Shown here: positions 9,599 to 42,780 of the stretch, piece after piece
Layout of the letters: every line of letters starts with the position of its first letter
Position numbering within the stretch: position 1 is the first letter of the stretch
Assembly (NCBI GenBank): GCA_044229975.1
Contig: JBGARZ010000005.1
Coordinates: 32,001-96,000 of the forward strand
Source: Polyangiales bacterium
GTDB taxonomy: Bacteria > Myxococcota_A > Polyangia > Polyangiales > Ga0077539
Reading direction: 5' to 3'
DNA length: 64,000 bases
Translations under genes and position numbers: made by a program
Notes under the pieces: model-generated
The model's input: the letters and a program-made list of their open reading frames with translations, nothing else
The model's database searches: none
Told to the model about the DNA's origin: nothing

Positions 9599-9648
9599 CA
9601 ACGACCGCGCCGAGAGTACCACCGCGGGCGAAGCGATATGATCCGCCG

Positions 9649-10389: not shown

Positions 10390-10449
10390 GTCGGAGGCCG
10401 AGCACCGAGAGACCTTGAGGCGGGGGTGGCGCTCATCTGCCGCGAGGGC

Positions 10450-10634
10450 GCCCCGGGACATCCCGGCGCGGGTACTCGTCCGACACGAACCCGCCCCGGG
10501 ACATCCCGGCGCGGGTACTCGTCCAACACGAACCCGCCCCGGAACGTCCCGGCGCGGGTACTCGTCCAACACGAACCCGCCCCGGAACGTCCCGGCGCGG
10601 GTACTCGCCCGACACACGGCAGCCCCAGGACACC
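10450..10634. repeat. 43-bp tandem repeat, 4 full copies plus a partial fifth, each with two hairpins
   Basis: Unit gccccgggacatcccggcgcgggtactcgtccgacacgaaccc starting at 10450, 10493, 10536, 10579 and (partial) 10622. Confidence 0.95.
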
Positions 10635-10753
10635 GTTTCTCGCCCTCGTGTCGAATTCGTCCTCGATCCCGCAACTCCGCCCGGTGGTCGTTCCGAAGAG
10701 AGCGCGTTCCAGGCACTGCGCATGGTGCGCCCCGCCCGGAACGGAGTTCTTCC

Positions 10754-11470
10754 ATGGATCAGTACATCGACAACAACGAGACCCAGACCTACGGCGACCG
10801 CTTCACCAGCAACCTCCGACTGATCTTCGGGGCCGACGCCCCGGAAGCCGTCCGCACCATCATGGTATGGTGCGCCGACCGGGTCGCCACCTCCACCCTC
10901 GCGATGCGCACCGCGATGGCCTCCAGCCGTGGGGCCCTCTCCGCGCGTAGCCACACCTCGGAGGAGAAGCTCGCCGCGGTCGTCACGGCGCGCCACGAGC
11001 TGCGATCCTTCGCGCTCCACCTCGCCGCATCCAGGTCCGACCAGCGCAACCCCTGGAACGGCGATCCCAACCTCTTCTTCCCTGGCGGCCGCTCCAGCAT
11101 CGGCGAGGGCGCTCGCAACGTGCGCGACGCCACCGCCATCGCCCGCAACGCCCTCGAAGGCGACCCCACGGTCCCTGCTCGCGCCGCGTGGTCCGATCGC
11201 CTCGACGCGCAGGTGGCGGCGCTCGACCCGTTGGTCGCTCGCGGCGACGAGGCGGAGCGCGCGGGCCGCACCACCCTCTCCGAACAGTCGTCGGAGAAGC
11301 GCGCGTGGCTCCGCACCTACCGCGGCGCGGCCCTCGTGCTGGAGGGATTGCTCCTCATGGTCGGTCGCGAGTCCGAGTACACCGCCGCGGTCCCCCACCT
11401 CACCGCGCCCAACACCCGCAAGCGGCGCGACGGCGTGCCCAACGCCCCCATCCCGACGCCCGTCGGCTGA
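10754..11470 (+). CDS. hypothetical, predicted all-alpha protein (238 aa)
   Basis: RBS ggag at 10743, ATG 10754 MDQYIDNNETQTYG...; host-like codon usage; basic/Pro-rich C-terminal tail. Confidence 0.75.
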   Translation: MDQYIDNNETQTYGDRFTSNLRLIFGADAPEAVRTIMVWCADRVATSTLAMRTAMASSRGALSARSHTSEEKLAAVVTARHELRSFALHLAASRSDQRNPWNGDPNLFFPGGRSSIGEGARNVRDATAIARNALEGDPTVPARAAWSDRLDAQVAALDPLVARGDEAERAGRTTLSEQSSEKRAWLRTYRGAALVLEGLLLMVGRESEYTAAVPHLTAPNTRKRRDGVPNAPIPTPVG

Positions 11471-14665: not shown

Positions 14666-17600
14666 CTATCGGTCGCAGGTCGTGATGTTGGTGAAGCTGA
14701 ACCAGTAGATCGGGTGCAGCGCCCCCATGCCGTAGACGCCGTCGACGGCGACCTGTGAGGTGGACTGCGGGAAGGACGAGTAGTCCACCCAGCGGCCGTT
14801 GTTGTTCACGTCGGAGAGGATGCGGTACGTCGCGCCCGCCGTGATGCTCCAGCTGGGAGTGAACACGAACGACGGCGCGCCCGCGGGCACCGCCACCGTC
14901 GCGAGCGTGGTGCCCGCGCCGTCAGTCAGCCGGATGGTGTCGGCCTGGCCCTGGTTCTGGAAGCGCACCGACGTGATGGTCGCGTTGCGCAGCGCGCGGA
15001 ACTGCATCCCCGACGTCGGCCACCCGTTGATGTTGTTGGTCAGCGTGGGACCGGCCACGGCGCCGCAGACGCCGACGCACGTCCCGGCCGTGCAGGTGAG
15101 GCCCGCGCCGCACGCGCCGCCGCAACGACCGCAGTTGGCCGTCGAGGTGCGGAGGTCGACCTCGCACCCGTTGGCCGGGTTGCCGTCGCAGTCGCCGAAG
15201 TTGGAGTCGCAGGTGAAGCCGCACACGCTGCCCGCGCAGGTGGCGGTCGCGTTGGCCCGCGGCGGGCACGCGTTTCCGCACGCCCCGCAGTGGCTCACGC
15301 TCGACGTCAGCGCCGTCTCACACCCGTCGGCGCGCGAGGCGTTGCAGTCCCCGAAGCCCGAAGCGCACACGAACCCGCAGGTGCTCATCGCGCACGCCGC
15401 GCGCGCGTTGGTCGCCGCCGGGCACACGGTGCCGCAGGCCCCGCAGTTCGTCGGATCGACCGCCGTGCTCGTGCAGGCGAGCCCGCACGCGGTCAGCCCC
15501 GCGCCGCAGCTCACCTGGCAGGAGCTCGCCGAGCACACCTGGCCCGACGGGCAGGTCACGCCGCAGGCGCTGCAGTTGAGCCGATCGTTGGTCAGGTCGA
15601 CGCAGCGACCGCCGCACACCGTCTGCCCCGACGGGCACACCAGGGTGCACACGCCGGACGTGCAGACCTGACCGGCCACGCACGCCGTCCCGCACGCGCC
15701 GCAGTTGGCCCGGTCGGTCTGGAGGTCGCGGCACACGCCCGAGCACGCGATGAGGCCCGTGGAGCACGACAACACGCAGGTGCCGCCGGTGCAGACCTGA
15801 CCCGCGGCGCACGCCATCCCGCACGCGCCGCAGTGGGCCCGGTCGGTCTGGAGGTCGCGGCACACGCCCGAGCACGCGTTGAGGCCCGCGGCGCAGCTCA
15901 CCACGCAGGCTCCGCCCACGCACACCTGGCCGCTCGCGCACGCCATCCCGCACGCGCCGCAGTGGGCCCGGTCGGTCTGGAGGTCGCGGCACGACCCGGT
16001 GCAGTTGGTGAGCGATCCGCCGCACGACACGGTGCAGGCGCCCGCGGTGCAGAGCTCGCCCGCCGCGCACGCGCGGCCGCACATCCCACAGTTGGTCGGG
16101 TCGGTCTGGAGGTTGCGGCAGATGCCGCTGCAGTTGGTGCCGGGCGTTCCGCACGACACGATGCAGGCCCCGGCCGAGCACACCTGACCAGCGGCGCAGG
16201 TCACCCCGCACGCGCCGCAGTTGGCGCGGTCGGTCTGGAGGTCGCGGCACGACCCGGTGCAGTTGGTCTGCGACGCCGGGCACGACACCTCGCATCGGCC
16301 CGCGGTGCACACCTGGCCCGCCGCGCACGCCATCGCGCAGCCGCCACAGTTGGCGCGGTCGGTCTGGAGGTCACGGCACACGCCGCTGCACGCGGTGAGC
16401 GCGCCGTCGCACGAGATCACGCACACGCCCGCGGCGCACACCTGGCCCGCCGCGCACAGGATCCCGCACGCGCCGCAGTTGCCACGGTCGGTCTGGAGGT
16501 CGCGGCAGGTCGTGCCGCAGGTGGTGAGCCCCGTCGGGCACGAGACCACGCACGCGCCGTTGGTGCACACCTGACCCGCCGAGCAGGTCGTTCCGCACCC
16601 GCCGCAGTTGGCCCGGTCGGTCTGGAGGTCGCGGCACGAGCCCGCGCACTCGGTGAGGCCCGCCACGCACGACGTCACGCACGCCGAGCCGGAGCACACC
16701 TGACCCGCGGCGCACGCCATGCCGCAACCGCCACAGTGGGCGCGGTCGCTGGTGAGGTCACGGCACGAGCCGCCGCAATCCGTGAGGCCCGCCACGCACG
16801 ACGTGACGCACATGCCCGCCGAGCACACCTGGCCCGCCGCGCAGACGCGCCCGCACATCCCGCAGTGCGCGCGGTCGCTCTCCAGCTCGCGGCACGAACC
16901 GCCGCAGTTGGACTGACCCGCCGGGCACGACGTCACGCACATCGCGCCCGAGCACACCTGGCCCGCCGCGCACGCCGTCCCGCAAGCGCCGCAGTTGGCG
17001 TTGTCGCTCTGGAGGTCGCGGCACGACCCCGAGCAGCTCGTCTGACCGACCACGCACGACGTCACGCAGGCGCCCGCCGAGCACACCTGGCCGGTCGCGC
17101 AGGCGGTGCCGCAGGTGCCGCAGCTCGCGCGGTCGCTCTGGAGGTCACGGCACGCGCCCGAGCAGGCCGTCTGCCCCACCGGGCAAGAGGTCTGGCAAGC
17201 GCCCATCACGCAGGCTTCGCCGGGCATGCACGCGACGCCGCAGCCGCCGCAGTGGAGCCGGTCGGTCTGCGTGTCACGGCACGCGCCCGAGCAGTCGACC
17301 TGACCCGTGGGGCACGAGGTCACGCACGCCCCCGCGGAGCACGCCTGACCGGCGGCGCAGGTGGTCCCGCAGGCGCCGCAGTTGGCGCGGTCGGCCTGGA
17401 GGTCGGCGCACACGCCCACGCCCCCGTCGGCGGTCGCGCCGCACACGGTGAAGCCCGGCAGGCAGCTCACCACGCAGCGGCCCGCCTCGCAGGCGCGCCC
17501 GGCGCCGCAGGCGTTGTTGCACGCGCCGCAGTTGACCGGATCGCTGGAGAGCATCGCGCAGCGGCGCACACCACCGGCGCTGGTGCAGGTCTCCAGGCCC

Positions 17601-18043
17601 GTCTGGCAGTTGGAGGCGCAGGCACCGTTGGAGCACACCTCACCGGGGCCGCAGCGACGGCCGCACGCGCCGCAGTGGTTGCCGTCGGTCTGGAGCAGCA
17701 CGCACACCTGCGCGCCGCCATCGCCTTCGAGCGCGCACGCCTGCTGCGCCGACGGGCAGGCGGTCTGGCACTGACCAGCGACGCAGCGGTCGCTCCCGGT
17801 GCAGCGGCGGCCGCACGCGCCGCAATTGTTGTCGTCGGTCGCGGACGTCACGCAGCGGCCGTCACAAAGGAGCTGGCCCGCCCCGCACGTGAGGCCCTGG
17901 TCGACGGCGATGTCTACTGTCACGTCCTCCCCCGCGTCATTGCCGCTGACCACGGAGTTGGACGAGGTACAGCCTGTCGCCCACAGCGCCGCCATCATCG
18001 CGGCGGCGATCAATCGATATCTTGCTGGTTGTTGCATGGACAC
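14666..18043 (-). CDS. Cys-rich repeat lipoprotein (MXAN_6577/Stig1-like repeats) with C-terminal beta domain
   Basis: Lipobox ATGC; about 21 copies of a ~43-aa C..L.TD..NCGACG..C..GQVC..G.C unit. Confidence 0.85.
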   Translation of the reverse strand: MSMQQPARYRLIAAAMMAALWATGCTSSNSVVSGNDAGEDVTVDIAVDQGLTCGAGQLLCDGRCVTSATDDNNCGACGRRCTGSDRCVAGQCQTACPSAQQACALEGDGGAQVCVLLQTDGNHCGACGRRCGPGEVCSNGACASNCQTGLETCTSAGGVRRCAMLSSDPVNCGACNNACGAGRACEAGRCVVSCLPGFTVCGATADGGVGVCADLQADRANCGACGTTCAAGQACSAGACVTSCPTGQVDCSGACRDTQTDRLHCGGCGVACMPGEACVMGACQTSCPVGQTACSGACRDLQSDRASCGTCGTACATGQVCSAGACVTSCVVGQTSCSGSCRDLQSDNANCGACGTACAAGQVCSGAMCVTSCPAGQSNCGGSCRELESDRAHCGMCGRVCAAGQVCSAGMCVTSCVAGLTDCGGSCRDLTSDRAHCGGCGMACAAGQVCSGSACVTSCVAGLTECAGSCRDLQTDRANCGGCGTTCSAGQVCTNGACVVSCPTGLTTCGTTCRDLQTDRGNCGACGILCAAGQVCAAGVCVISCDGALTACSGVCRDLQTDRANCGGCAMACAAGQVCTAGRCEVSCPASQTNCTGSCRDLQTDRANCGACGVTCAAGQVCSAGACIVSCGTPGTNCSGICRNLQTDPTNCGMCGRACAAGELCTAGACTVSCGGSLTNCTGSCRDLQTDRAHCGACGMACASGQVCVGGACVVSCAAGLNACSGVCRDLQTDRAHCGACGMACAAGQVCTGGTCVLSCSTGLIACSGVCRDLQTDRANCGACGTACVAGQVCTSGVCTLVCPSGQTVCGGRCVDLTNDRLNCSACGVTCPSGQVCSASSCQVSCGAGLTACGLACTSTAVDPTNCGACGTVCPAATNARAACAMSTCGFVCASGFGDCNASRADGCETALTSSVSHCGACGNACPPRANATATCAGSVCGFTCDSNFGDCDGNPANGCEVDLRTSTANCGRCGGACGAGLTCTAGTCVGVCGAVAGPTLTNNINGWPTSGMQFRALRNATITSVRFQNQGQADTIRLTDGAGTTLATVAVPAGAPSFVFTPSWSITAGATYRILSDVNNNGRWVDYSSFPQSTSQVAVDGVYGMGALHPIYWFSFTNITTCDR

Positions 18044-22899: not shown

Positions 22900-24327
22900 A
22901 TGGTCGCCACCGCCCGCCTCGCCCTCTTCGCTTCCCTCCTCGTCGCCTGCGCCCCGCGCTCGGTCGACGCGCTTCTCGACGTCCCGTCCTCGCGCGACGC
23001 CAGCACCGATCAGCCCGCCGCCGATGTGCCTCCATCCATCGACGTCCCGCCCGCCGTCGACATCCCCATCGCTGTCGACATCCCCATCGCTGTCGACATC
23101 CCCATCGCTGTCGACATCCCCATCGCTGTCGACATCCCCATCGCTGTCGACATCCCCATCGCTGTCGACATCCCACCCGCTGTCGACATCCCACCCGCTG
23201 TCGATGTTCCGCCCGCTGTCGACGTCCCGCCCGCCGTCGACGTCCCACCCGCTGTCGATGTCCCGATCGTCGTCACCACGCCCGTCGCCCAGGTCAGCGC
23301 GGGCTTCGAGCACACCTGCGCCGTCCTGCCCTCTGGAGTCGTGCGCTGCTGGGGCGCCAACGACCACGGCCAGCTCGGCGACGGAACCACCACCTCCCGC
23401 ACGCGCCCGACCCCGTTGCCCACGCTGAGCGGCGTCGCCGAAGTGAGCGGCGGGCGGGAGTTCTCCTGCGCGCGACTCACCGCCGGCGGAGCGCGCTGCT
23501 GGGGCCGCAACCAGTACGGTCAGCTCGGCGACGACGCGAGCACCGGGAGCCCCACGCCCACCACGGTGCAATCGCTCTCCGGCGCCGCCGAGATCGCCGC
23601 GGGCGGCTACCACGCCTGCGCGCGGGCCACCGACGGACGCCTGCGCTGCTGGGGCTACAACGCCGTCGGCGCCGTCGGCGACGGAACCACCCAGCCGCGC
23701 AACACGCCCACCCTCATCGCCGGCCCGACGGACATCGCGCAGGTGGGCCTCGGCAACTTCTCCTCCTGCGCGCGTCGCACCACCGGCGCGGTGGTCTGTT
23801 GGGGCGACAACGACTTCGGCCAGATCGGTGACGGCAGCCTCACGCAGCGTAACGCGCCCGCCACGGTCATGGGCCTCACCGGCGCCACGCACCTCGGGGT
23901 GGCCACGTCGAGCGCGTGCGCCGTGCGGGGCGACGGCAGCGTCTGGTGCTGGGGCCGCAACGAGTACGGACAGCTCGGCGACGGGAGCGCCACCAACCGA
24001 TCGACCCCGGTGCAGGTCGCGGGGCTCGCGGGCGTGGCCGCCATCGCGGGTGGCGGAGGCTTCTTCTGCGCGCGCATGGCGGACGCCACCGTGCGCTGCT
24101 GGGGCCGCAACACGGTCGGGCAGCTCGGCGACGGGACCACCACCAATCGCCGCGTTCCGACAGTCGTCCCGGGCCTGAGCGGCGTGGCGGAGGTCACCGT
24201 CGGCGACGCCCACGCGTGCGCGCGGCTCACCACCGGCGAGCTCCGCTGCTGGGGCGAAAACGAGCGCGGTCAGCTCGGCGACGGAACCACCACGGCCCGC
24301 CGCCAACCCACGCTGGTGGTGTTCTGA
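22900..24327 (+). CDS. RCC1-repeat lipoprotein with hexapeptide-repeat linker
   Basis: Lipobox LVAC; seven C(W)G.N..GQLGDG repeats. Confidence 0.9.
   Translation: MVATARLALFASLLVACAPRSVDALLDVPSSRDASTDQPAADVPPSIDVPPAVDIPIAVDIPIAVDIPIAVDIPIAVDIPIAVDIPIAVDIPPAVDIPPAVDVPPAVDVPPAVDVPPAVDVPIVVTTPVAQVSAGFEHTCAVLPSGVVRCWGANDHGQLGDGTTTSRTRPTPLPTLSGVAEVSGGREFSCARLTAGGARCWGRNQYGQLGDDASTGSPTPTTVQSLSGAAEIAAGGYHACARATDGRLRCWGYNAVGAVGDGTTQPRNTPTLIAGPTDIAQVGLGNFSSCARRTTGAVVCWGDNDFGQIGDGSLTQRNAPATVMGLTGATHLGVATSSACAVRGDGSVWCWGRNEYGQLGDGSATNRSTPVQVAGLAGVAAIAGGGGFFCARMADATVRCWGRNTVGQLGDGTTTNRRVPTVVPGLSGVAEVTVGDAHACARLTTGELRCWGENERGQLGDGTTTARRQPTLVVF
23020..23271 (+). repeat. 18-bp coding VNTR (VDIPIA/VDVPPA, about 14 units)
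   Basis: gtcgacatccccatcgct x6 perfect from 23056, followed and preceded by variant units. Confidence 0.95.
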
Positions 24328-25499
24328 TGGAGCGCGTGGCGAGCGCCCTCCTCCTCGTCGTGACGACCCTTGCGGGCTGCGCCAACACCGTCACCGTCAC
24401 CGACGCCTCGGCCGACGCCAGCGTCGACGATGCGACCGACGCCTCCGTCACCCCGCGGGCCGTCGCCCAGATCGCCGCGGCGGGCGCCTACTCCTGCGCG
24501 GTGCGTTCGGACGGACGCGTGCGCTGCTGGGGGCGCTACGGGATGGGCCCCGACGCGGGTGTCGCCGAGAGCGCGGCGCCCTACGAGGTGGCCGGCCTCA
24601 CCGACGCCATCGAGGTCACCGTGTCGCCCGACACACCGGGCAGCGCGTGTGCCCTCCGCGCGGGTGGTCAGGTCGTGTGCTGGACCATCCGCACGCGCAC
24701 CGCCCCCGAAGCCGTCGCCGAGCTGCCGGCCGTCGCGCACATCACGAGCGGGTCGGGCCATCGATGCGCGCTCACCACCGAAGGCGAGGTCCTCTGCTGG
24801 GGAACCAACCGCTTCGGCAAGCTCGGTCGCCCCACCGACATGACCGCGGAGACACCCGCGAGGGTGCCCGGGCTCGCTCCGGTGCGCGCGCTCTCTTCAG
24901 GCGAGGCCGAGACCTGCGCGGTGACGCGCGACGGTCAGGTGTGGTGCTGGGGACGTAACCACCGCGGTGCGCTCGGCGACGGCGTCACGAGTGGACACGG
25001 CTGCCCCGTCGAGGGGGAGGACTGCTCCTTCGCGCCGGTGCGCGTGGCGGGCCTCGACGCCGCGACGAGCGTGTCTGTCGGGCTCAACGGCGCCTGCGCC
25101 GTGCAGCGCGGTCGCGCCTGGTGCTGGGGCTGGAACAACAACGGCCGCCTCGGCGACGGCACCGACGTCGACCGCCCGACCCCGACGGAGGTCCGTACGC
25201 CGGGCGAGGTCGCGTCGGTGTACTCGGGCTACCTCACGGGCTGCGCCATCGGCGTCCGCGGCGCCCTGTGGTGCTGGGGCTACGACCAGGGCCCAACCGT
25301 CGATGGGATGACCCTCCGGGCGCTCTCTCCGACGACCGTCGCCGGGGTCGACCGCGCGGTCGAGGCGACGGGCGGCTGGTACCACCTGTGCGCGCTGCGC
25401 GACGACGGCGCGGTGCTCTGTTGGGGCGGCAGCGACTTCGGACAGCGCGGCATCGACGGCGATGCAGGCGCCGCCGCGACGCGCGTCCCCGGACTCTAG
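24327..25499 (+). CDS. RCC1-repeat lipoprotein
   Basis: TGA/ATG overlap at 24325-24329; MERVASALLLVVTTLAGC; repeated CWG.N..G.LG. Confidence 0.88.
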   Translation: MERVASALLLVVTTLAGCANTVTVTDASADASVDDATDASVTPRAVAQIAAAGAYSCAVRSDGRVRCWGRYGMGPDAGVAESAAPYEVAGLTDAIEVTVSPDTPGSACALRAGGQVVCWTIRTRTAPEAVAELPAVAHITSGSGHRCALTTEGEVLCWGTNRFGKLGRPTDMTAETPARVPGLAPVRALSSGEAETCAVTRDGQVWCWGRNHRGALGDGVTSGHGCPVEGEDCSFAPVRVAGLDAATSVSVGLNGACAVQRGRAWCWGWNNNGRLGDGTDVDRPTPTEVRTPGEVASVYSGYLTGCAIGVRGALWCWGYDQGPTVDGMTLRALSPTTVAGVDRAVEATGGWYHLCALRDDGAVLCWGGSDFGQRGIDGDAGAAATRVPGL

Positions 25500-34896: not shown

Positions 34897-35886
34897 ATGG
34901 CGTCGACCGCGAACCAAGTGACCACGGGCCCGCGCGAGCGTCCGCTCTTCGGCGTCAACCTGCCGTGGTTCTTCGGGTCTTACGGGCACGACCTCGCGCC
35001 CAACGAGCACCACCCCACCTGGGGTCACCGCTTCGACGCCGCCCTCGCCGAGCGCTCGCTCCAGTCGGCCCGCGCGATGGGCTTCGACGCCGTTCGCATC
35101 TGGCTCTGTGAGCACGCCGAAGGGGTCGTCACCCGCGACGGTCGCATCGACGCCGTGCACCCGGCCCTGCTCGCCAGCATCGACGCCCTCCAGGGCATCG
35201 CCGCGCGCCTCGGCCTCCGCGTCTACTGGACCCTCCTCGACGCCAACTCGTGGAAGCGCGAGGGCGACGCGCTCACCCACGCCATCGTCGTCGACCCCGA
35301 CGCCACCGCGCGCTTCGCCGAACGCATCGCGGCCCCCATCGCCCGCGCGCTCGACCCGTCGCTCGCCGTCGCGTTGGAGGTGCTCAACGAGCCCGAGGTG
35401 ATGACCCCCGAGTGCCTCGCTCCCACCGACTCCTCCGTCCCATGGACCACCATCGGCCGCGCGCTGCACACCATCGGCGACGCCATCCGCGCCGAGCGCC
35501 CCGCCATCCCGGTGACCGCCGGCACGATGCACGTCTTCCTCCCGCGCCTCTGGGCGAGCGGCGCCGCGCTCGACGCCATCGACGTGCACCTCTATCACCC
35601 CGACGGCGGCCTGCCTCCGCTCGCTCACCTCGCGGACTACGTGGGCGACCAGCGCATCGCGCGCGGGGAGGTTCCGCTCATCGCGGGCGAGTGCGGGATG
35701 CCCGATGGGGTCGACGTCGCCGAGCACGGGCGCCTCGCCAACTACCTGCACAACGCCGCGCGCAACGACTACCGCGCGGCCTTCCTGTGGCGCCTCGAAG
35801 GTCCGTTGGTGCGCCGCGACGACGAGGGTTCGCTGACCGACGCCGGGCACCGCGTGCGCGACACGCTGGGCCGGGGCGTGCCGTGA
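34897..35886 (+). CDS. glycoside hydrolase, clan GH-A (GH5-like)
   Basis: FGVNLPW, VRIWL, acid/base LNEPE, DVHLY, nucleophile AGECG, FLW. Confidence 0.75.
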   Translation: MASTANQVTTGPRERPLFGVNLPWFFGSYGHDLAPNEHHPTWGHRFDAALAERSLQSARAMGFDAVRIWLCEHAEGVVTRDGRIDAVHPALLASIDALQGIAARLGLRVYWTLLDANSWKREGDALTHAIVVDPDATARFAERIAAPIARALDPSLAVALEVLNEPEVMTPECLAPTDSSVPWTTIGRALHTIGDAIRAERPAIPVTAGTMHVFLPRLWASGAALDAIDVHLYHPDGGLPPLAHLADYVGDQRIARGEVPLIAGECGMPDGVDVAEHGRLANYLHNAARNDYRAAFLWRLEGPLVRRDDEGSLTDAGHRVRDTLGRGVP

Positions 35887-36689
35887 GCGCCAACTCGGTC
35901 GAGCGGTGGGATGTGTTCTGGCGGTGGGAGAGCTTCCGTCGGCGGTGCGACCCGGTAGACGCGCGCCGCTGGAAGCGCGACTCGCAGCGCGAGCTCTGGG
36001 AGCGCTTCGGTGACCGCGACCCGCTGGTGCTGGACGCGACGCTCGGGCTCGGCGACCACGCGCTCAACCTCTGCGAGCTGGGCTTCCGCACGGAGGGCTG
36101 CGACGGGAGCGCGCTGGCGTTGTCGCTCGCCCGCGAGATGCTGGCGCGGGAGGGCGCGCGGGTGGAGACCTTCGAGGCGCGGTGGGCCTCGCTGGGCGCG
36201 ACGCACGCGGGTCGCTACGGGCTGATCTTCCACGACGCGCTGCACTGGATCTACGAGCGCGACGAGCTGCTCGCGGCGCTGCGCGGACTGCACGCGGCGC
36301 TGGCGCCGGGCGGGGCGCTGGCGTTCTTCTTCGCGGAGGCGAAGAAGCCCGAGGAGGGGGAGGCGCTGCGGGTGATGCAGTGGGAGCTCGCGCGCCTGGT
36401 CGAGCACGAGGACGTGTGGTCGCACGAGCGCGACGGGACGCGGGTGACGTGCACGCGGCGCAACGTGGTGGGGGCGGACTACATCGATCAGGCGTACTCG
36501 TTTGCGGTGAGCGAGCCGGGTGGGGCCACGCGGGTGGAGGAGACGACGTTGCGCCGGGTGTACCGATGGGACTGGTTCGCGCTGGGCGGGGTGCTGCGCG
36601 AGGCGGGCTTCGTGGATGTGCGGTCGGAGCAGTGCCGCAACGCGCTCGGGGATGGCTACGCGCTCAACCTGGCGTACCGGGCTGGGTAA
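35883..36689 (+). CDS. class I SAM-dependent methyltransferase
   Basis: GTG 35883 overlapping upstream stop; VLDATLGLG, GCDGS, LAPGG. Confidence 0.8.
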   Translation: MSANSVERWDVFWRWESFRRRCDPVDARRWKRDSQRELWERFGDRDPLVLDATLGLGDHALNLCELGFRTEGCDGSALALSLAREMLAREGARVETFEARWASLGATHAGRYGLIFHDALHWIYERDELLAALRGLHAALAPGGALAFFFAEAKKPEEGEALRVMQWELARLVEHEDVWSHERDGTRVTCTRRNVVGADYIDQAYSFAVSEPGGATRVEETTLRRVYRWDWFALGGVLREAGFVDVRSEQCRNALGDGYALNLAYRAG

Positions 36690-36729
36690 CCGCGCGAGCT
36701 TCGACGCATGGCCCGCAATGCGCGCGTCT

Positions 36730-36820
36730 GCCCAACGGCTGGCCGCTGTGCCACCGCAGTGGGCGGGGTGGGGTGGTGATGAGTGGAGTGGGAGCGGTCG
36801 GCACCATCGGCTTGTTGGGC
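36730..36820 (-). other. attC: attC site 7 (91 bp)
   Basis: Minus strand GCCCAAC AAGCC GATGGTGC ... GCACAGC GGCCAGCC GTTGGGC. Confidence 0.9.
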
Positions 36821-36821
36821 A

Positions 36822-37520
36822 CTAGCCACTGCCATTGATGACTAGCACTTTGCGCCCCGTTCCGCCATCCGCTTCCCAGCCGTATTTCGTCACACCTCGG
36901 CGTCCCAAACACTCGCAAGTTGCGGTGCCGCTCGCCGTTGCGTTCATGAACTCAACGATCAGAAGACTCCGCAAGGCCATTCGGGACACCAAGCTGTCGC
37001 ACATTCGGCCAAGCGCCTCGCCGGAGTAGTATTGCAGTACCTTGCGACAGACGATCAGGTCGAACGGGCCCGTTTCGACTGAGGCGTCGGCAATGTCGCC
37101 TCGAACAAAGCGAATGGTCCCACCAGCACGATACGGCGGAGTCCATACGCACTGTTTCGCGAGCTTGCCTTCTCTGTAGGTGTCATACCGGTGCTCGCGA
37201 ACCGTTGGCGCCGCGCAGTTCGCTTGTAGACGCAAGAGCGCTACATCCGAGATGTCTAGCGCTGTGACCTCTGCTCCCATCGCGACAAAGTCGAGAGGTT
37301 CGATCGAGACACCGTTACCGGCAAAGAGAGCCCGAGACACTGGCGTCGATTCAAAGTACTCCCGCATTTGGAACGCCAACGAGTAGATGGGGAGTGAATC
37401 GCCCGCATGGCTCGCCCACCACTTGTTCCACCATTCAGGGTTGCGAACCTCCTCGGCGTGGTGGCGACCACCTGAGGTGGCCTCTCTTCCCGAGAACAGG
37501 CTACGGATGAACGAAAGCAT
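36822..37520 (-). CDS. cassette 7: class I SAM-dependent methyltransferase
   Basis: RBS gagga; LFAGNG, VTALDIS, GDIAD...FDLIVCRKVLQYY; stop abuts attC. Confidence 0.8.
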   Translation of the reverse strand: MLSFIRSLFSGREATSGGRHHAEEVRNPEWWNKWWASHAGDSLPIYSLAFQMREYFESTPVSRALFAGNGVSIEPLDFVAMGAEVTALDISDVALLRLQANCAAPTVREHRYDTYREGKLAKQCVWTPPYRAGGTIRFVRGDIADASVETGPFDLIVCRKVLQYYSGEALGRMCDSLVSRMALRSLLIVEFMNATASGTATCECLGRRGVTKYGWEADGGTGRKVLVINGSG

Positions 37521-37533
37521 GGTCCTCTGTATC

Positions 37534-37624
37534 GCCTAACGACTGGCCGATGTGCCGCCGCACCGGGCGCGGCGGGTTGGCAGTGGGTGAAGCGGGGGCG
37601 GTCGGCACCATCGGCTTGTTGGGC
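37534..37624 (-). other. attC: attC site 6 (91 bp)
   Basis: Minus strand GCCCAAC AAGCC GATGGTGC ... GCACATC GGCCAGTC GTTAGGC. Confidence 0.92.
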
Positions 37625-37647
37625 ACGTCAGGTCGCATGCGTCACAT

Positions 37648-38127
37648 TCACAGGTAATCAAAGAACCGGATCCACCAAGTGATTCGTCCGTCGTTGAGCG
37701 CGCGGTTCTTGCCGTCGTAGATCTCGCCGAGTTCGTCTGCTGGCACATATCTCCAGCCTCGCAGTTCGACCACTGCCCTGATTCTATCCACCGGGTAGTT
37801 TGTCAGAGTGTCCGGCACGGCGCTGTAGATCGTATAAAAGCGCCCGAAGTTCGAGAACCGCACCGCGATCTCGGGAGTGAGGGCTACGACGCCATTCGCG
37901 CGAAAGCTGTCCGGATGAAGTCGGCGCAGTTCGTCGTGAAAGGATGCGTCTTGCACATACCCATCGCGGTCAAACGGCAGATTGAGTTCATTGCGTAGAG
38001 TTTCCTGAATGCTCCCAACGCTTGCCGCGAGTGCGTCGTACGGGAAGGCCGCCCAATTCTCTCCGGGCACCTCGCAACCGACGGGGTCGTCAGAGTCGTC
38101 GAGCAGTTTTCGAAGCGCTGGATTCAC
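37648..38127 (-). CDS. cassette 6: hypothetical protein
   Basis: GTG 38127 just inside the core site; ends ...WWIRFFDYL before attC. Confidence 0.75.
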   Translation of the reverse strand: MNPALRKLLDDSDDPVGCEVPGENWAAFPYDALAASVGSIQETLRNELNLPFDRDGYVQDASFHDELRRLHPDSFRANGVVALTPEIAVRFSNFGRFYTIYSAVPDTLTNYPVDRIRAVVELRGWRYVPADELGEIYDGKNRALNDGRITWWIRFFDYL

Positions 38128-38135
38128 GGATACCT

Positions 38136-38226
38136 GCCCAACGACTGGCCGCTGTGCCGCCGCCACGTATCAGGTGACTGTTCCTCTGGCTGATTGGACG
38201 CGGTCGGCACCAGCGGCTTGTTAGGA
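38136..38226 (-). other. attC: attC site 5 (91 bp)
   Basis: Minus strand TCCTAAC AAGCC GCTGGTGC ... GCACAGC GGCCAGTC GTTGGGC. Confidence 0.9.
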
Positions 38227-38518
38227 ATGCTGAACCTTGCTGGCGACGCGATGGTGGCAGTGCCGGACGTGGGACGCAGGCCAACCGTGGTCGTTGCCGT
38301 GGTCGTTGCCGTGGTCGTTGCCGTGGTCGTTGCCGTGGTCGTCGCCGCGGCCGTCGCCCTCGCCGTCACTGCCCACTGCCTGGCCGTCACGTCGCTCGTC
38401 TCCCATCGCTCACAGTTCGCTGCTCGAAGACCGTTGTCCGTTGTCGGACGCTTGCTTCCTCGCCGATCGTGGCCCGATTCGTGCTCTTCGCAGGGCGCCG
38501 CTCGTCGCTCTCCGAGCT
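38227..38518 (-). other. cassette 5: no convincing gene; 12-bp tandem repeat; possible 61-aa His/Asp-rich peptide (38221..38406)
   Basis: ccgtggtcgttg x4 plus 2 variants at 38285-38356; bounded by matching GTTAGGA/TCCTAAC cores. Confidence 0.7.
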
Positions 38519-38609
38519 TCCTAACGGCTGGCCGATGTGCCGCCGCAATGAGCGGGAGATCCGTTCCTGAGGCTGAGTGCGAGCGGTCGGCACCATCGGC
38601 TTGTTGGGC
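38519..38609 (-). other. attC: attC site 4 (91 bp)
   Basis: Minus strand GCCCAAC AAGCC GATGGTGC ... GCACATC GGCCAGCC GTTAGGA. Confidence 0.92.
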
Positions 38610-38699
38610 ACGCCGCCCGCTGCCCTGTCCACGCGCATGTGCGACGTCACGCCATTGCTCTCCGTGAACTCCGTAGCGCCGGACCCAAGACGATCGGCA

Positions 38700-39251
38700 T
38701 CAGTCGCGCTTCCATAGCGAGAGGAATTCCGCGGCTACCACCAACGTTCGGCCGCTGTCGGAGAACCCGAATGCCCGTAGCTCGGGCCAATCCTTGACCA
38801 ATAGGAACTCCCTGTCCGATTCGCTGGATGGGTCGTCGTAGGGGACTTTGAGCACCAAGCTCTCACAAGGCCAGTTGGGCGCGATTCGACGGACCTTCCA
38901 TCCGTCCGGGGTGAAGGCCTTGAGCCCTCCCCCCCACAAGCCAGCAACGGGGATGCGCCGGCCGGCGAGCGGCCCGATGCCGACAACCGACACGGGGTAA
39001 GGGTCGTGCTCGCCCTCCGCGTTGCCGCTGTGGCCAGGTTCGTCGGCCAAGGTGTCGCCCGTCTTGGCGTCGACCACGGTCAGTCCGTCGTGGGTCAGCA
39101 CAACCAGCCACTCGGTGCCCGGTGCGAAACCCATCGCGACGGGCATCTCGAAAAATCTCTCCACCGACACCCGCGCCCAAGGGGGCGGCGGATTGACCCT
39201 CTGGCGACTTCGCCACTCTGCACGAATCTTTCGGATGCGCTCATTGGTCAT
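38700..39251 (-). CDS. cassette 4: hypothetical protein (beta-rich)
   Basis: 183-aa ORF filling the cassette; AGLWGGGL..TPDGW, AFGFSDSG. Confidence 0.75.
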   Translation of the reverse strand: MTNERIRKIRAEWRSRQRVNPPPPWARVSVERFFEMPVAMGFAPGTEWLVVLTHDGLTVVDAKTGDTLADEPGHSGNAEGEHDPYPVSVVGIGPLAGRRIPVAGLWGGGLKAFTPDGWKVRRIAPNWPCESLVLKVPYDDPSSESDREFLLVKDWPELRAFGFSDSGRTLVVAAEFLSLWKRD

Positions 39252-39316
39252 TGAGTCTTCGGCCCTGATCGAAGGGCCTTGTCGCTCTCACGCTGCCAAC
39301 CCGTGGGGCCGAGGCT

Positions 39317-39407
39317 GCCCAACGACTGGCCGATGTGCCGCCGCAGCGGGCGCGCCGGGTTGGCGGTGGATGAAGTGGGAGCGGTCGGCACCATCGGCTT
39401 GTTCGGC
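39317..39407 (-). other. attC: attC site 3 (91 bp)
   Basis: Minus strand GCCGAAC AAGCC GATGGTGC ... GCACATC GGCCAGTC GTTGGGC. Confidence 0.92.
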
Positions 39408-39441
39408 CAAAGTGGTCGCTGCGACGGCAAGATGGCAGCCA

Positions 39442-39831
39442 TCATGCAATCCAGCATTTTTCCGAGGTGATCTGCTGAACGCTGCCATCACGGCCGAACG
39501 CGACGAACCACGTCCCACCATCACCCAACCCACCGCTAGTTACGCAGCCGAACGAAATCTCAACCTCGTCCGATTCAAGCGGTTTCGCACTCAAGTGGTA
39601 TCCGTGAGCCTTGCCTGTGTAGAAGATCGTGTCGAGGTCGAGGCCAGCTGTAAGTTCGCTGTGAAGAAGTTTGCACGCCAAGATGTGAGTTTCGGTGTCT
39701 GCACACTGGAGAAAGAACGCAGTCACCTTCTCATCGCCAAGGAAGCCTCGCGCCACCGCCACCTCTTTCTCCCGCCGTGTCTTGGGTGTTTTGGTCTTCC
39801 GTCGCTTCACAGGGCGTCCCTCCACAAGCAT
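39442..39831 (-). CDS. cassette 3: hypothetical protein
   Basis: 129-aa ORF filling the cassette, lower GC; start uncertain. Confidence 0.65.
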   Translation of the reverse strand: MLVEGRPVKRRKTKTPKTRREKEVAVARGFLGDEKVTAFFLQCADTETHILACKLLHSELTAGLDLDTIFYTGKAHGYHLSAKPLESDEVEISFGCVTSGGLGDGGTWFVAFGRDGSVQQITSEKCWIA

Positions 39832-39909
39832 CCCGCTGCCAAGTCTGTGCTCGATCGCGGCGCGCTACCCAATCCTTACTTGCACGCAGCGGCACTCGTC
39901 GAGTCCGCT

Positions 39910-40000
39910 GTCGAACGGCCTGCCGATGTGCCGCCGCATCGGGTGCGACGGGTTGGCAGGGGGTGAAGCGGGGGCGGTCGGCACCATCGGCTTGTTAGAC
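39910..40000 (-). other. attC: attC site 2 (91 bp)
   Basis: Minus strand GTCTAAC AAGCC GATGGTGC ... GCACATC GGCAGGCC GTTCGAC. Confidence 0.9.
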
Positions 40001-40028
40001 CAACGGTATGTCATCTGGGTGTCGCTCG

Positions 40029-40529
40029 TCACTCGCCAGTCTCCATTGGGAGCAAAGGCGTTTCTGCCGAACGCCTGAAGTAGCCGGAAACGGCGGCGCC
40101 CGCGTTAGCGAAGAAGCGAGCGTCTTCCTCGTCATCCTCCGGCCGGGCAAGGCGCCACAGAGAGATTTGCCACTCCTGAAAAATGAAGGAAAAGCCGGGA
40201 TCGGTAATGGCACGATCAAATGGTGTGAAGATGTCGAGTGCAGGGATGAGGTCCGATGCTGGCGTCGCAAGCAGATCGTACCCTTGAAACATGACGGCGA
40301 CAGGGCCGCCACGGCACACCTCAATGAACTCCGCGGTGTCTGTCGATCGCTGATAGAACACCTGGAAGGAATTCCCGAACCAGGCATCGGCAAGTGGATC
40401 GTCCGCGAGCATGTTTTTCTGGAAGCTGACGGGAGTCGACCCCATAGCCGCTCGCACTTCCATCCGCGATGCACCCAATCTCACTGGACCGATGCCGACG
40501 AGGGGAATGATGTCAAAGCGAAGCTGCAT
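40029..40529 (-). CDS. cassette 2: hypothetical protein (immunity-protein-like N-terminus)
   Basis: FDIIPLVGIGPVRLGASRMEVRAAMG; acidic 166-aa ORF; RBS-like aggtga upstream. Confidence 0.75.
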   Translation of the reverse strand: MQLRFDIIPLVGIGPVRLGASRMEVRAAMGSTPVSFQKNMLADDPLADAWFGNSFQVFYQRSTDTAEFIEVCRGGPVAVMFQGYDLLATPASDLIPALDIFTPFDRAITDPGFSFIFQEWQISLWRLARPEDDEEDARFFANAGAAVSGYFRRSAETPLLPMETGE

Positions 40530-40649
40530 CGGCGTCCGTCACCTATCGTTTCGTGGCTCGCTACTCGTTGATCGCGGCACGCCAACCATGGCTCTCCGCT
40601 CTGGGATCGCGGCGCGGGTCTTGCTCTTCCGTAGGCCGCTGCTCTGGGC

Positions 40650-40740
40650 GTCTAACGGCTGGCCGGTGTGCCGCCGCACTGGCTGCGTTGGGTTGCCATT
40701 GAGCACATCGTGGGCGGTCGGCACCACCGGCTTGTTAGGA
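40650..40740 (-). other. attC: attC site 1 (91 bp)
   Basis: Minus strand TCCTAAC AAGCC GGTGGTGC ... GCACACC GGCCAGCC GTTAGAC. Confidence 0.9.
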
Positions 40741-40828
40741 GGCAGCCTGCGCCCCGCCTGCCCGCGCCTCGCGCCTTGCTCATCCGGCGTCAGTGGCTGC
40801 TTGTCGTCCATTGCTCCGTCACCCCGCC

Positions 40829-41146
40829 TTACGTCGCTTCTCGCGAGGCTCTCGCTCGGCCGCCGGACAGTTCAAGCCACTCGACGATCACGTCGGCCGT
40901 CTCGACGAGTGACGTCGTCGTGACGCGCCCTCCGTGCTTGTCCGTCTCGACAAGGAACGGGCACGCGCCGGAGCTCGACTCGATCTGGACTTCGCCCGGC
41001 CGACTTGGAATCCAGAAGAACCACAGGCCGTCGTCGTCTGCGGTATGTGTGACTGACAACTGCTCCCATTCCACGTTGGGCAACCGTGCTCGCACCAGCC
41101 CGATCAGTTCCTCGATGTCCGGCGTTATCGTGGAAACAGTCCCCAT
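40829..41146 (-). CDS. cassette 1: hypothetical protein (105 aa)
   Basis: RBS ggag, ATG 41146 MGTVSTITPDIEE...ADDDGLWFFW...QIESSSGACPFLVE. Confidence 0.75.
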   Translation of the reverse strand: MGTVSTITPDIEELIGLVRARLPNVEWEQLSVTHTADDDGLWFFWIPSRPGEVQIESSSGACPFLVETDKHGGRVTTTSLVETADVIVEWLELSGGRARASREAT

Positions 41147-41226
41147 TACTCCACCCGCACGCGGCTTGAACCCGATGGGAGACTTTCTCGTTCCAGACTG
41201 CCTCGAACCCTCGCCAGTGTCGCGCC

Positions 41227-41245
41227 GCCTAACATCTCGTTCACC
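41227..41245 (-). other. candidate attI simple site
   Basis: Minus strand GGTGAAC-GAGAT-GTTAGGC (L box, 5-nt spacer, R box); core matches R'' of attC1 (TCCTAAC). Confidence 0.6.
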
Positions 41246-41281
41246 CCGCGCCCCATTGCCGAATCCCGTCTTTGGCGCTGC

Positions 41282-41357
41282 TCGCCCGCTTGCTACCCAA
41301 CTCCATATCCCCATTCGCGTAGTTCGCCCGCTCGCTGCCCAATTCCATAACCCCATT
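41282..41357. repeat. imperfect 34-bp direct repeat x2, 42-bp period
   Basis: tcgcccgcttgctacccaactccatatccccatt / tcgcccgctcgctgcccaattccataaccccatt. Confidence 0.85.
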
Positions 41358-41667
41358 TCGGCGCTCTTCGCCAGCCTCTCCTCTCCTCCGCCGCGTCGCC
41401 CTCCTCCCGACCCGCGCCGCGACGGCCTCGCCCCGCAGCTCGAATCCACCCGAGTTCGTCACGGCGCTGAGCTCGCGGCCCGGCGTGGCGACGTCGACCT
41501 CCCCCGACGCCCTCCGCACGAAGCTCCCCGGCGCCTCGACCCGCTCACGAGTCCACCCTCCAGCCCGCCGTCCACCACGCCGCCCAGGCCGCAGCCATCG
41601 ACCAGCGCCGCCTGCCATACCCCTGCCACACCCCTTCCCCGCCCCTTCCCCACCTCCAACGCCCCTC

Positions 41668-41796
41668 GTCATCCCCGACCTGCACCAGCGCCCCTCCCCG
41701 ATGACCCACGGTCATCCCCGCCCCGCATCTCCGCGACCTCCCCATGACCCGCCGTCATCCCCGACCAGCACCCACGCTCCCTTCGACCGCGCCGAC
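41668..41796. repeat. degenerate C-rich 43-bp tandem repeat x3
   Basis: gtcatccccg at 41668, 41711 and 41754; atgaccc recurs in units 1 and 2. Confidence 0.75.
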
Positions 41797-41889
41797 CCAT
41801 CGGACACCTGCGTTCGCGCTCCCTTCTCATGGCGCTTGCCTATCGCCAGTCCCACCAGAGACAACCGGCGATCAAGGGAGGTTATGTTC

Positions 41890-42780
41890 ATGGGGAAGAA
41901 GAACGTTCCAACCAACGCTCCGGGTCATGCAGCGGGCGGCGACGGCGCGCCCCCGGTCGGCGACGCGCAGGCCGCGTACGAGTCGCGCAAGGCCGCGTGG
42001 AAGGCCCTCGGCGGCGTCGAGCTCGGTCCGCCGCGCGTCAACCTCGGCTTCGTCACGGCGCGGGTGCTCCAGATCGGCCGCGCGCTCGCGGAGCCCGGCA
42101 CGCTCGCATCCTTCGACGCGCTCGCCGCCGTGCCGCTGGCCGACGCATCCCCCTACGACGCAGGCGCCGTGCGCCGGCTCCCGGTCATCGCCCTGGCCCT
42201 GTGGCACGCGCGCTACTGCTACCTCACGGCCTCGGCGCAGGCGACGACCGTCGCGCTCCCGCCCGAGACCGTCGCGGCCGCCACGAAGCTACGCGAGGTG
42301 ATGCTCCGCGTCGTGGCCTACCACTGCGTCGACGCCAACAACCCCGACGACAAGGTCGCCGCCGACCTCGACTCCATCCGCGCGGTCGAGGGCCCTCGCT
42401 ATCTCGACCTCGCCACCGACCTCTCGCGCCTCGCGGCCTACTACCGCGACCCTCGCTGGCTCCCGGTGTTCACCACCGATACGCGGCACTTCCGCGCGTC
42501 CGACGGCGAGGCCGCCGAGAAGGCCGCGGCCGACATCCTCGCGCGGCTGCACCAGCGCACCGACGAGGCAGCGACGTGGCTCGTCGAGCTCTACCGCGGC
42601 TGGGCCGACCTCCAGCGCACCTACGACGTCGTGCGGCGCGGGGCGAGCTTCGTGTTCTGGGGCGACGAGGCGAAGGTGCCGCCGCTCGGGTCGCTCCGAC
42701 CGGCGGCGCGCAAGGCGACCAGGGCCGGGGAGACGGAAGAAGACGAAGACCCGATCACCCCTCCCCCGCCGACGACGTGA
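41890..42780 (+). CDS. hypothetical, predicted all-alpha protein (296 aa); not an integrase
   Basis: RBS gggagg 41876-41881; host-like codon usage; no HxxR..Y tyrosine-recombinase motifs. Confidence 0.8.
   Translation: MGKKNVPTNAPGHAAGGDGAPPVGDAQAAYESRKAAWKALGGVELGPPRVNLGFVTARVLQIGRALAEPGTLASFDALAAVPLADASPYDAGAVRRLPVIALALWHARYCYLTASAQATTVALPPETVAAATKLREVMLRVVAYHCVDANNPDDKVAADLDSIRAVEGPRYLDLATDLSRLAAYYRDPRWLPVFTTDTRHFRASDGEAAEKAAADILARLHQRTDEAATWLVELYRGWADLQRTYDVVRRGASFVFWGDEAKVPPLGSLRPAARKATRAGETEEDEDPITPPPPTT

What the first reader, a model, noticed from the sequence alone, without database searches (positions are those of the whole stretch)
36730..41245. Integron cassette array with seven exactly 91-bp attC sites and no integrase nearby (CALIN-like) in a myxobacterium-like genome
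Seen: seven imperfect palindromes at 36730, 37534, 38136, 38519, 39317, 39910 and 40650. All are 91 bp, with conserved ends (minus strand xxxxAAC-AAGCC-G(A/C/G)TGGTGCCGACCGC ... GCGGCGGCAC(A)xCGGCxxGxC-GTTxxxx) and variable central loops. They separate short, co-oriented, visibly lower-GC ORFs. Established: this is attC architecture (R''/L''/L'/R' boxes, extrahelical bases), and a length-homogeneous attC family is typical of sedentary chromosomal integrons such as Vibrio VCRs. Inference: a lineage-specific chromosomal integron system whose IntI acts in trans or was lost.
Basis: partly seen in the sequence, partly recalled or inferred. Interest (0 to 1): 0.9.

Follow-up and report, generated by a model that had tools for sequence, protein, structure and literature searches.

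The report
Integrase-decayed integron array retaining attI
This is a genuine row of seven integron gene cassettes in a myxobacterium-like genome that still has its cassette entry site but only a broken scrap of its own integrase gene, and it is one of ten such rows that are likely served by a single intact integrase elsewhere in the genome.

Summary
Confirmed: seven co-oriented 91-bp attC sites at the stated coordinates, with attC anatomy. Each site pairs better with its own cassette's start than with the next cassette's. Correction: the array is not platform-less. It keeps an attI site (crossover at 41233) and, directly behind it, a 5'-deleted, frameshifted intI remnant (41392-41622). The genome holds 43 sites of this attC family in ten clusters and one intact IntI on another contig. 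Seven intI-less or remnant-bearing heads keep attI, and arrays share cassettes (91-99% identity). The attC family occurs in 19 of 24 genomes of this Polyangiales family, and platform loci differed where I could compare them. At least 12 of 21 intI-less arrays in relatives keep attI. Best reading: a decayed copy of an integron platform that has multiplied, probably refilled in trans (inferred). CALINs from intI loss are a known kind, and the scan noted another array of this genome before (e1-2103318). Side lead: gene-less cassettes (window c5) share their leader with cassettes carrying many unrelated genes (window c2), which might point to how new cassettes are made.

The parts
36730..36820 (-). 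attC of cassette 7 (last site); its right end lies 40 bp from the stop of a convergent chromosomal methyltransferase gene (35883-36689 +)
36822..37520 (-). cassette 7 ORF, 232 aa, SAM-dependent methyltransferase domain
   Evidence: Pfam PF13649 28.8 bits, cut-off 27
37534..37624 (-). attC of cassette 6
37648..38127 (-). cassette 6 ORF, about 159 aa (start uncertain), no family; cassette body 93% identical to one in the C23a array
38136..38226 (-). attC of cassette 5
38227..38525 (-). cassette 5 body: gene-less, with a 12-bp tandem repeat; member of a recurrent gene-less cassette family; carries the shared leader (38412-38518)
   Evidence: (D13)
38519..38609 (-). attC of cassette 4
38700..39251 (-). 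cassette 4 ORF, 183 aa, conserved protein of unknown function; cassette 91% identical to one in C23b and 84% to the first cassette of an intact integron in G021
   Evidence: (45 hits including itself)
39317..39407 (-). attC of cassette 3
39442..39831 (-). cassette 3 ORF, 129 aa, no family; best Atlas feature hit 0.85 to hypothetical proteins (a lead only)
39910..40000 (-). attC of cassette 2
40029..40529 (-). cassette 2 ORF, 166 aa, unknown function (4 homologues, 37-85%)
40555..40644 (-). cassette 2 non-coding leader, homologous to the leader of gene-less cassettes
   Evidence: leader HMM 25.4 bits, E 1e-4 genome-wide
40650..40740 (-). attC of cassette 1
40829..41146 (-). cassette 1 ORF, 105 aa with a GGAG ribosome-binding motif, no family
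   Evidence: sequence; (scanned from 41134)
41227..41385 (-). attI: crossover G|TT at 41233/41232, preceded by imperfect ~42-bp repeats that begin with GTT/ATT-GGG boxes
   Evidence: first 7 nt match the R'' box of cassette 1 at 6/7; 92% over 159 nt to the C2 head, 88% over 134 nt to the C23b head; 81% over 84 nt to the head beside intact intI of G002; PWM rank 42 of 149,331 GTT sites
41392..41622 (+). intI pseudogene fragment: codons ~162-268 of the 316-aa IntI, frameshifted, 5' half and ~76 nt internal segment deleted; may fade out to ~41790
   Evidence: 73-76% nt to family intI genes; the tail 41630-41800 is not significant on its own (70 of 1000 shuffles)

Best explanation
The region is an integron cassette array whose own integrase gene has decayed to a frameshifted fragment while its attI entry site and seven attC sites stayed intact, and it is likely one of several dispersed copies of an integron platform that would be refilled and shuffled in trans by the genome's one intact IntI. 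Shown: the attC anatomy; cassette boundaries at G|TT; an attI homologous to those beside intact intI genes; the intI remnant; an intact IntI on contig C4; cassette families shared between arrays. From established integron biochemistry (passages of PMC5027507 and PMC4889954): IntI excises a cassette by attC x attC recombination of bottom-strand hairpins and inserts it at attI. Inferred: the intI-attI platform was copied or re-acquired at new loci (vehicle not found), redundant intI copies decayed, and the attI-bearing satellites stay usable by the remaining enzyme.
For: (1) Cassette-unit test: the R'' box of each attC matches the first 7 nt of its own cassette at 240 of 252 positions, against 212 of 252 for the next cassette, over 36 cassettes. 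0 of 20,000 permutations reached this; the window gives 46 vs 40 of 49. (2) The first cassette matches at 6-7 of 7 at all seven attI heads tested. A PWM from nine attI sites beside intact intI ranks the eight genome heads at 1, 2, 3, 4, 6, 7, 11 and 42 (window) of 149,331 GTT sites; C4 itself was in the training set. (3) intI remnants sit behind the window and C28 heads, in the divergent orientation of the intact platform. (4) The C4 IntI is over the TIGR02249 cut-off, has the catalytic motifs, and its best PDB match is IntI4 (E 5.5e-79). (5) Shared cassettes: window c4/C23b 91%, c6/C23a 93%, C23b/C2a 94%, C19/C23a 99%. (6) Relatives: of 32 arrays with a visible head (38 loci with attC, 6 cut by a locus or contig end), 4 have a full-length intI, 7 a remnant and 21 none. 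12 of those 21 carry an attI scoring >=17, a threshold reached by only 59 sites in G000. G019 has three IntI over cut-off; Sorangium So ce1099 has two, at 1.6 and 8.1 Mb. (7) The remnant is riddled with indels while all seven attC sites are whole, which fits cassette turnover after intI death (inference).
Against: No window cassette body (attC excluded) matches the array beside the intact IntI, and the closest window copies differ by 7-9%, so recent exchange at this locus is not shown. c5 and c6 are neighbours in the same order in C23a, which also fits block duplication. The window attI is the weakest of the eight heads (17.8 bits, rank 42), has a 1-nt insertion relative to C2 and C23b, and is of a different attI type from the one beside the C4 IntI; whether that enzyme uses it is untested. 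The PWM threshold misses 2 of 4 heads beside full-length intI, so it is a crude classifier. The remnant's 73-76% identity is measured against paralogues that are only ~85% alike among themselves, so its age is poorly bounded. No transposase, repeat or sharp boundary explaining how platforms move was found. The genome is 93% complete, so a second intact intI could be unassembled.
Confidence: 0.7

Rival explanations
1. Frozen relic: a once-complete integron whose intI died and whose array has been static since. Sharing between arrays comes from duplication of whole platforms with their cassettes, with no activity in trans.
For: Window cassettes are 7-9% diverged from their copies, and c5-c6 keep their order in C23a. 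The C19 and C2-end heads begin with the same first cassette. The window and C28 remnants begin at nearly the same intI position (profile 478 vs 474), as expected if a truncated platform was copied.
Against: The heads most like the window's (C2a 92%, C23b 88%) lead arrays with different first cassettes and nearly disjoint content. attC sites and attI are intact while intI is shredded. A 99% identical cassette sits in two arrays without intI in cis.
Confidence: 0.22
2. CALIN seeded by cassette insertion at a secondary genomic site (attG), or split off a larger integron by rearrangement, without a platform of its own.
For: This route is documented (passages of 10.1101/2022.09.11.507474 and PMC4889954). 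It may apply to the C8 cluster, whose head lies beside a transposase-like ORF end (read by eye), and to some of the 9 of 21 intI-less relatives' arrays without a scoring attI.
Against: The window array starts exactly at an attI homologue with an intI fragment behind it.
Confidence: 0.05
3. REP/BIME-like or other dispersed palindromic repeats, unrelated to integrons.
For: Single-site folding z-scores are modest, and the stem is almost invariant, with only 2 compensatory changes among 32 sites, so pairing alone proves little.
Against: The copies are clustered, co-oriented and separated by low-GC single-gene units; the own-start test; adjacency to intI in G000 and relatives.
Confidence: 0.01

Closest known systems
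CALIN arising by intI loss (Cury et al. 2016, PMC4889954; passages read)
   Same: [quoted passage not shown]
   Different: That paper found intI pseudogenes near only 15 of 279 CALINs and searched attI only by exact match to classes 1-3. Here an attI is traceable at most intI-less arrays (7 heads in G000; at least 12 of 21 in relatives), and the attC sites are homogeneous, whereas its abstract reports low similarity in CALINs.
Sedentary chromosomal integrons with taxon-specific attC families (Vibrio VCR; Xanthomonas ilvD integron, 10.1101/2025.06.18.660453, passages read)
   Same: Homogeneous lineage-specific attC, chromosomal location, frequent intI inactivation, extra CALINs in the same genomes, gene-less cassettes.
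   Different: No single ancestral locus was seen: platforms lie at different loci in the congeners compared, with several per genome; arrays are small (1-7 sites in G000).
attG-inserted cassettes, SALIN/CALIN (10.1101/2022.09.11.507474, passages read)
   Same: Cassettes away from an intact integrase, at many loci.
   Different: This array begins at an attI homologue with an intI remnant; that paper reports that attI itself does not recombine into genomes at a significant rate.
Gene-less cassettes of Vibrionaceae superintegrons (10.1101/2023.11.21.568050, passages read)
   Same: Recurrent cassettes with no sizeable ORF.
   Different: Here their leader, and sometimes their trailer, also flanks many unrelated ORFs. 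No sigma-70-type promoter was found by the consensus scan. That paper suggests some gene-less cassettes derive from coding ones.

Membership tests
attC site | R''/R' boxes RYYYAAC...GTTRRRY with a conserved AAC/GTT | tested here: met
   AAC and GTT in 7 of 7 window sites; the three pairs are Watson-Crick in 30, 32 and 30 of 32 genome sites
attC site | L-box stem with extrahelical bases on the R'' arm and an unpaired central spacer | tested here: met
   Bulged positions 16 and 23 are invariant in 32 of 32 (bottom strand C and T; PMC5027507 gives G16/T23 for attC aadA7; numbering matched by analogy); unpaired 2-nt and 5-nt spacer
attC site | Bottom strand more stable and G-rich | tested here: met
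   32 of 32 sites, mean 4.3 kcal/mol; top-strand GC skew -0.21
attC site | Match to the IntegronFinder or attC-taxa covariance models | not testable with these tools
   Those models are not held here; Rfam gave no match in 36000-42000
attC site | Recombined by IntI | not testable with these tools
   Needs a recombination assay; indirect support from the own-start test
CALIN | At least two clustered attC sites | tested here: met
   Seven sites
CALIN | No intact integron integrase nearby | tested here: met
   Only a frameshifted fragment in the 64-kb window; the only TIGR02249 match over cut-off is on C4
Complete integron | Intact intI in cis | tested here: not met
   5' half deleted, including the catalytic Arg and Lys motifs; frameshifts
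Complete integron | attI at the array head, divergent from intI | tested here: met
   41227-41385
Complete integron | Pc promoter | tested here: inconclusive
   No sigma-70 consensus in 36600-42000; other promoter types are not covered
Sedentary chromosomal integron | Homogeneous taxon-specific attC family | tested here: met
   32 of 38 high-scoring G000 sites are 91 nt; pattern in 19 of 24 family genomes and 1 of 16 other families of the order
Sedentary chromosomal integron | One conserved locus shared across the taxon | tested here: not met
   rnpB locus in G002 and G004 but not G000; no fetched relative's integron flank maps onto the window locus; the G005 homologue (73%) of the 41890 gene has no attC or intI in 6.6 kb. 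Most relatives are fragmented MAGs.
Mobile (plasmid, phage or transposon) integron | Carried on a plasmid, phage or transposon | tested here: not met
   No match in PLSDB or IMG/VR; flanks are 71-72% GC chromosomal-type genes on a 557-kb contig

The most novel reading that the evidence does not exclude
Gene-less cassettes such as window c5 are empty chassis: this lineage makes new gene cassettes by dropping foreign ORFs into a pre-existing leader-trailer-attC frame. This would explain the fixed 91-bp attC and why one leader precedes 16 unrelated ORF families. The products then circulate among many attI-bearing satellite arrays served by one integrase.
Probability: 0.2. Interest if true: 0.85.

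Novelty: new variant of a known kind. Interest (0 to 1): 0.5.

Why it matters
It shows that many arrays a pipeline would call CALINs are, in this Polyangiales family, decayed platforms that keep attI: a dispersed multi-locus integron system rather than one sedentary super-integron or attG debris. It supplies attI and attC sequences for a group where I found no dedicated description (searches; open-access library only). If the shared-leader lead holds, it offers a testable route for cassette creation, which PMC4889954 calls unknown.

Tried and rejected
REP-like repeat: rejected.
The C19 tyrosine recombinase as a second IntI: rejected. It scores 201 bits, under the 265 cut-off, and sits with a Y2 transposase inside a cassette-like unit that has its own 111-bp attC.
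IntI-made boundary beyond the intI 3' end (platform as a giant cassette): not supported. Similarity between platforms often ends at a GTCAA motif 70-130 bp past the stop, but it also ends there between G002 and G004, which share the locus, and it runs on for ~2 kb in Sorangium. A promoter-like element is the simpler reading.
attI copies starting exactly at an upstream repeat: not supported; homology runs past the repeats.
The 8-nt right spacer and the C at bulge 16 as unique features: dropped, as several Sorangium attC candidates look alike by eye.
Tail of the intI remnant (41630-41800): not significant on its own.
Structured RNA in c5: z -0.40. Rfam: none. tRNA target site: none in the window.
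Defence or phage families for the cassette ORFs: none beyond a weak methyltransferase hit.
Sequencing runs: none was listed, so no read-level test of excision or expression was possible.
Structure prediction could not be run, so the folds of c2 and c4 are open.
The first attI PWM had one misaligned training row (window rank 18); the corrected run gives rank 42 and is the one used.
One search timed out and was redone.
Supplements of the papers were not read and could hold attI or attC data for this group.
Full report
Observation. A repeat search of the whole window returns one family of seven 91-nt copies at exactly the stated starts, with conserved ends and a variable centre. Read on the minus strand they run R'' box, stem arm with two bulged bases, loop, stem arm, 5-nt spacer, R' box. 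Folding supports the hairpin but only modestly per site (z -0.48 to -3.23). Over 32 distinct 91-nt sites taken from the 36 cassettes I could delimit in the genome, the 19 stem pairs are Watson-Crick in 28-32 of 32, the bulges at positions 16 and 23 are invariant, and the bottom strand is the more stable in 32 of 32. This matches the attC features described in passages of PMC5027507. The stem hardly varies, so covariation is nearly absent and is not evidence. The array is 62.4% GC against 71-72% around it.

A test that separates cassettes from ordinary repeats: a circular cassette's attC is closed by its own first seven bases. The R'' boxes match their own cassette start at 240 of 252 positions and the next cassette's start at 212; 21 cassettes fit better with their own start and 4 worse, and 0 of 20,000 permutations reach 240. 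The window thus holds seven true cassettes of 577, 740, 593, 798, 383, 602 and 804 bp from 41233 down to 36737 (boundaries given from the G of GTT). Six carry a co-oriented ORF. Only cassette 7 has a family (methyltransferase); NCBIfam, PADLOC and PHROGs add nothing; c4 and c2 have homologues of unknown function. Cassette 5 is gene-less.

The first cassette begins at a GTT at 41233 that is preceded by about 150 bp of attI-like sequence with imperfect ~42-bp repeats. This head is 92% and 88% identical to the heads of the C2 and C23b arrays and 81% to the head beside the intact intI of congener G002. Directly behind it, on the opposite strand as in intact platforms, lies a fragment of intI: codons ~162-268, 73-76% identical to family intI genes, frameshifted, with the 5' half and an internal ~76 nt missing. 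By position it falls in the segment between the catalytic Lys and His-X-X-Arg motifs where the integron-specific insertion lies (location recalled; PMC4889954 mentions a ~35-residue domain near patch III). The element is a decayed platform.

The genome. A profile of the seven sites finds 45 hits at E<=10. Two are noise (E 7.7 and 8.7); 43 fall in ten co-oriented clusters on nine contigs. One cluster, on C4, adjoins an intact IntI. C28 has a second remnant, which starts at almost the same intI position as the window's but has different internal deletions. A PWM from nine attI sites beside intact intI genes ranks the eight clear heads at 1, 2, 3, 4, 6, 7, 11 and 42 among 149,331 GTT sites; the window is the weakest. 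Cassette families recur between arrays at 91-99%, but no window cassette body has a counterpart in the C4 array. IntI relatives place the organism in Polyangiales (84-85% to two MAGs, one labelled Polyangiales; 74-77% to Sorangium).

The family. The attC motif occurs in 19 of 24 family genomes and 1 of 16 other families of the order. IntI over the cut-off occurs in 7 of 24 and 0 of 16 at E<=1e-60; these are MAGs of 64-96% completeness. I fetched 40 stretches, chosen around listed motif hits and not covering all arrays. Of 38 with attC sites, 6 had the head cut off; of the other 32, 4 have a full-length intI at nucleotide level (some may be pseudogenes, as G004 and G018 had no hit), 7 a remnant and 21 none. 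12 of those 21 have an attI scoring >=17, a lower bound since the threshold misses 2 of the 4 heads beside full-length intI. Loci were not conserved where testable: G002 and G004 carry the platform beside rnpB, G000 does not, and G005's homologue of the gene right of the window array has no array. A complete Sorangium chromosome has two platforms, each followed by ~2 kb of shared genes. I found no boundary or transposase that explains how platforms move in this family.

Mechanism. Shown: anatomy, boundaries, attI, remnant, intact IntI elsewhere, shared cassette families. Established: attC x attC excision and attC x attI insertion by IntI; action on CALINs in trans is stated as possible in PMC4889954, PMC9668308 and 10.1101/2025.06.18.660453 (passages). 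Inferred: platforms multiplied, spare intI copies decayed, and attI-bearing satellites are still refilled (0.70). In favour: near-identical heads lead different cassettes, and sites are whole while intI is shredded. Against: no recent exchange is shown for this array, and its attI differs in type from the C4 attI. The frozen-relic reading keeps 0.22.

A side lead on cassette origin. From G000, relatives and 74 metagenome loci (119 stretches matched, 74 loci listed) I delimited 179 cassette bodies, 110 after 97% dereplication. 38 share a 5' leader by BLAST clustering (570 directed edges; 0 in five shuffles; 34 with reversed sequences), 18 of them without an ORF of 80 aa. An HMM built only from the 18 short cassettes hits 24 of the 92 larger ones, 18 at the 5' end; 13 score >=25 bits against 0 in both controls, though the reversed control has 9 weak hits. 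The 17 hits with an ORF of at least 80 aa fall into 16 unrelated families (some of the shorter ORF calls may be spurious). In G000 the HMM hits only array positions, among them window c5 and c2. One G001 cassette is nearly a whole gene-less cassette of the c5 family with ~540 nt of ORF in its middle; only 4 of 92 match a gene-less cassette at both ends. The direction is open: insertion into an empty frame, loss of ORFs, or leader swapping. The gene-less family also keeps its length modulo 3 in 11 of 13 and has a mostly open antisense Val/Ala-rich frame, so it may encode a small peptide, or this may reflect triplet repeats; the pairs are not independent. I give the chassis reading 0.2.

Literature. 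Full-text searches for integron with Myxococcota and CALIN, with Polyangiales, and with myxobacteria, for multiple or truncated integrons, attC models and gene-less cassettes or cassette genesis listed no paper devoted to this system. The library lacks most subscription papers, and most hits were seen only as listings. Deltaproteobacterial chromosomal attC sites have been modelled (PMC8352920, passages). Multiple integrons per genome (20% of integron-bearing genomes) and intI pseudogenes near 15 of 279 CALINs are on record (PMC4889954). Its length equals the C23b array (my inference), whose attI ranks first.

Verdict. A real CALIN by definition and a decayed integron platform by anatomy; a new variant of a known kind. 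Interest 0.5, carried by the family-wide retention of attI and the shared-leader lead.

Noticed in passing
G000 C19:433338-436055 (L002, L301) and the end of C2 (354654-354783): The first cassette after an attI is a 2.7-kb unit holding a non-IntI tyrosine recombinase and a Y2 (IS91-like) transposase, with its own 111-bp attC whose R'' matches its start 7/7. The same start follows the attI at the end of C2, and C23 begins with the cassette that follows it in C19, so C2 and C23 may join there.
   Followed up: partly
70-130 bp beyond the intI stop in many family and Sorangium platforms; 300-420 bp upstream of attI in G000 C14, C19, C2-end and G001 L149: A conserved TTGAC box with a TAGC-like box 17-19 bp on, on the cassette strand: possibly a promoter reading antisense through intI. 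Its presence at intI-less heads suggests whole-gene deletion (C14 and C2-end significant against one of two flanks, C19 not).
   Followed up: partly
L029, L030, L033, L035 (Sorangium), ~8950-11050: intI is followed by a shared ~2-kb block (HTH-, sigma- and RadC-like ORFs; labels recalled from motifs, not tested) at different chromosomal sites, suggesting a larger mobile unit; these arrays have heterogeneous attC candidates (59-127 nt).
   Followed up: partly
L166:13436-14800 (G002): An insertion, apparently IS-like, splits the attI repeats from the crossover site beside an intact intI; three gene-less c5-family cassettes follow in tandem.
   Followed up: no
G000 C23b cassette 5 and C2a cassette 5; five further cassettes: A recurrent two-ORF cassette whose 3' ORF resembles a ParE/RelE-type toxin-antitoxin toxin (resemblance recalled, not tested).
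   Followed up: no
window 40539-40811 (-): A 90-aa ORF with a GGAG motif starts in cassette 1's trailer, reads through attC and stops 10 nt before the cassette 2 start; it could couple translation. The attC consensus also carries an ATG at position 14.
   Followed up: no
window 41890-42780 (+): A 296-aa protein of no Pfam family right of the remnant; homologues in 14 of 30 family genomes at differing loci.
   Followed up: partly
window 15077-17854, 22985-23342, 23283-25456, 10421-10635: Coding-type tandem repeats (129-bp Cys-rich units, 18-bp units, 150-bp units) and a 43-bp four-copy repeat; unrelated to the array.
   Followed up: no
G000 C39:236880-237410 and C8:35060-36310: Single decayed attC sites: C39 with a mutated attI of the C4 type, C8 with its head beside a transposase-like ORF end.
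   Followed up: partly
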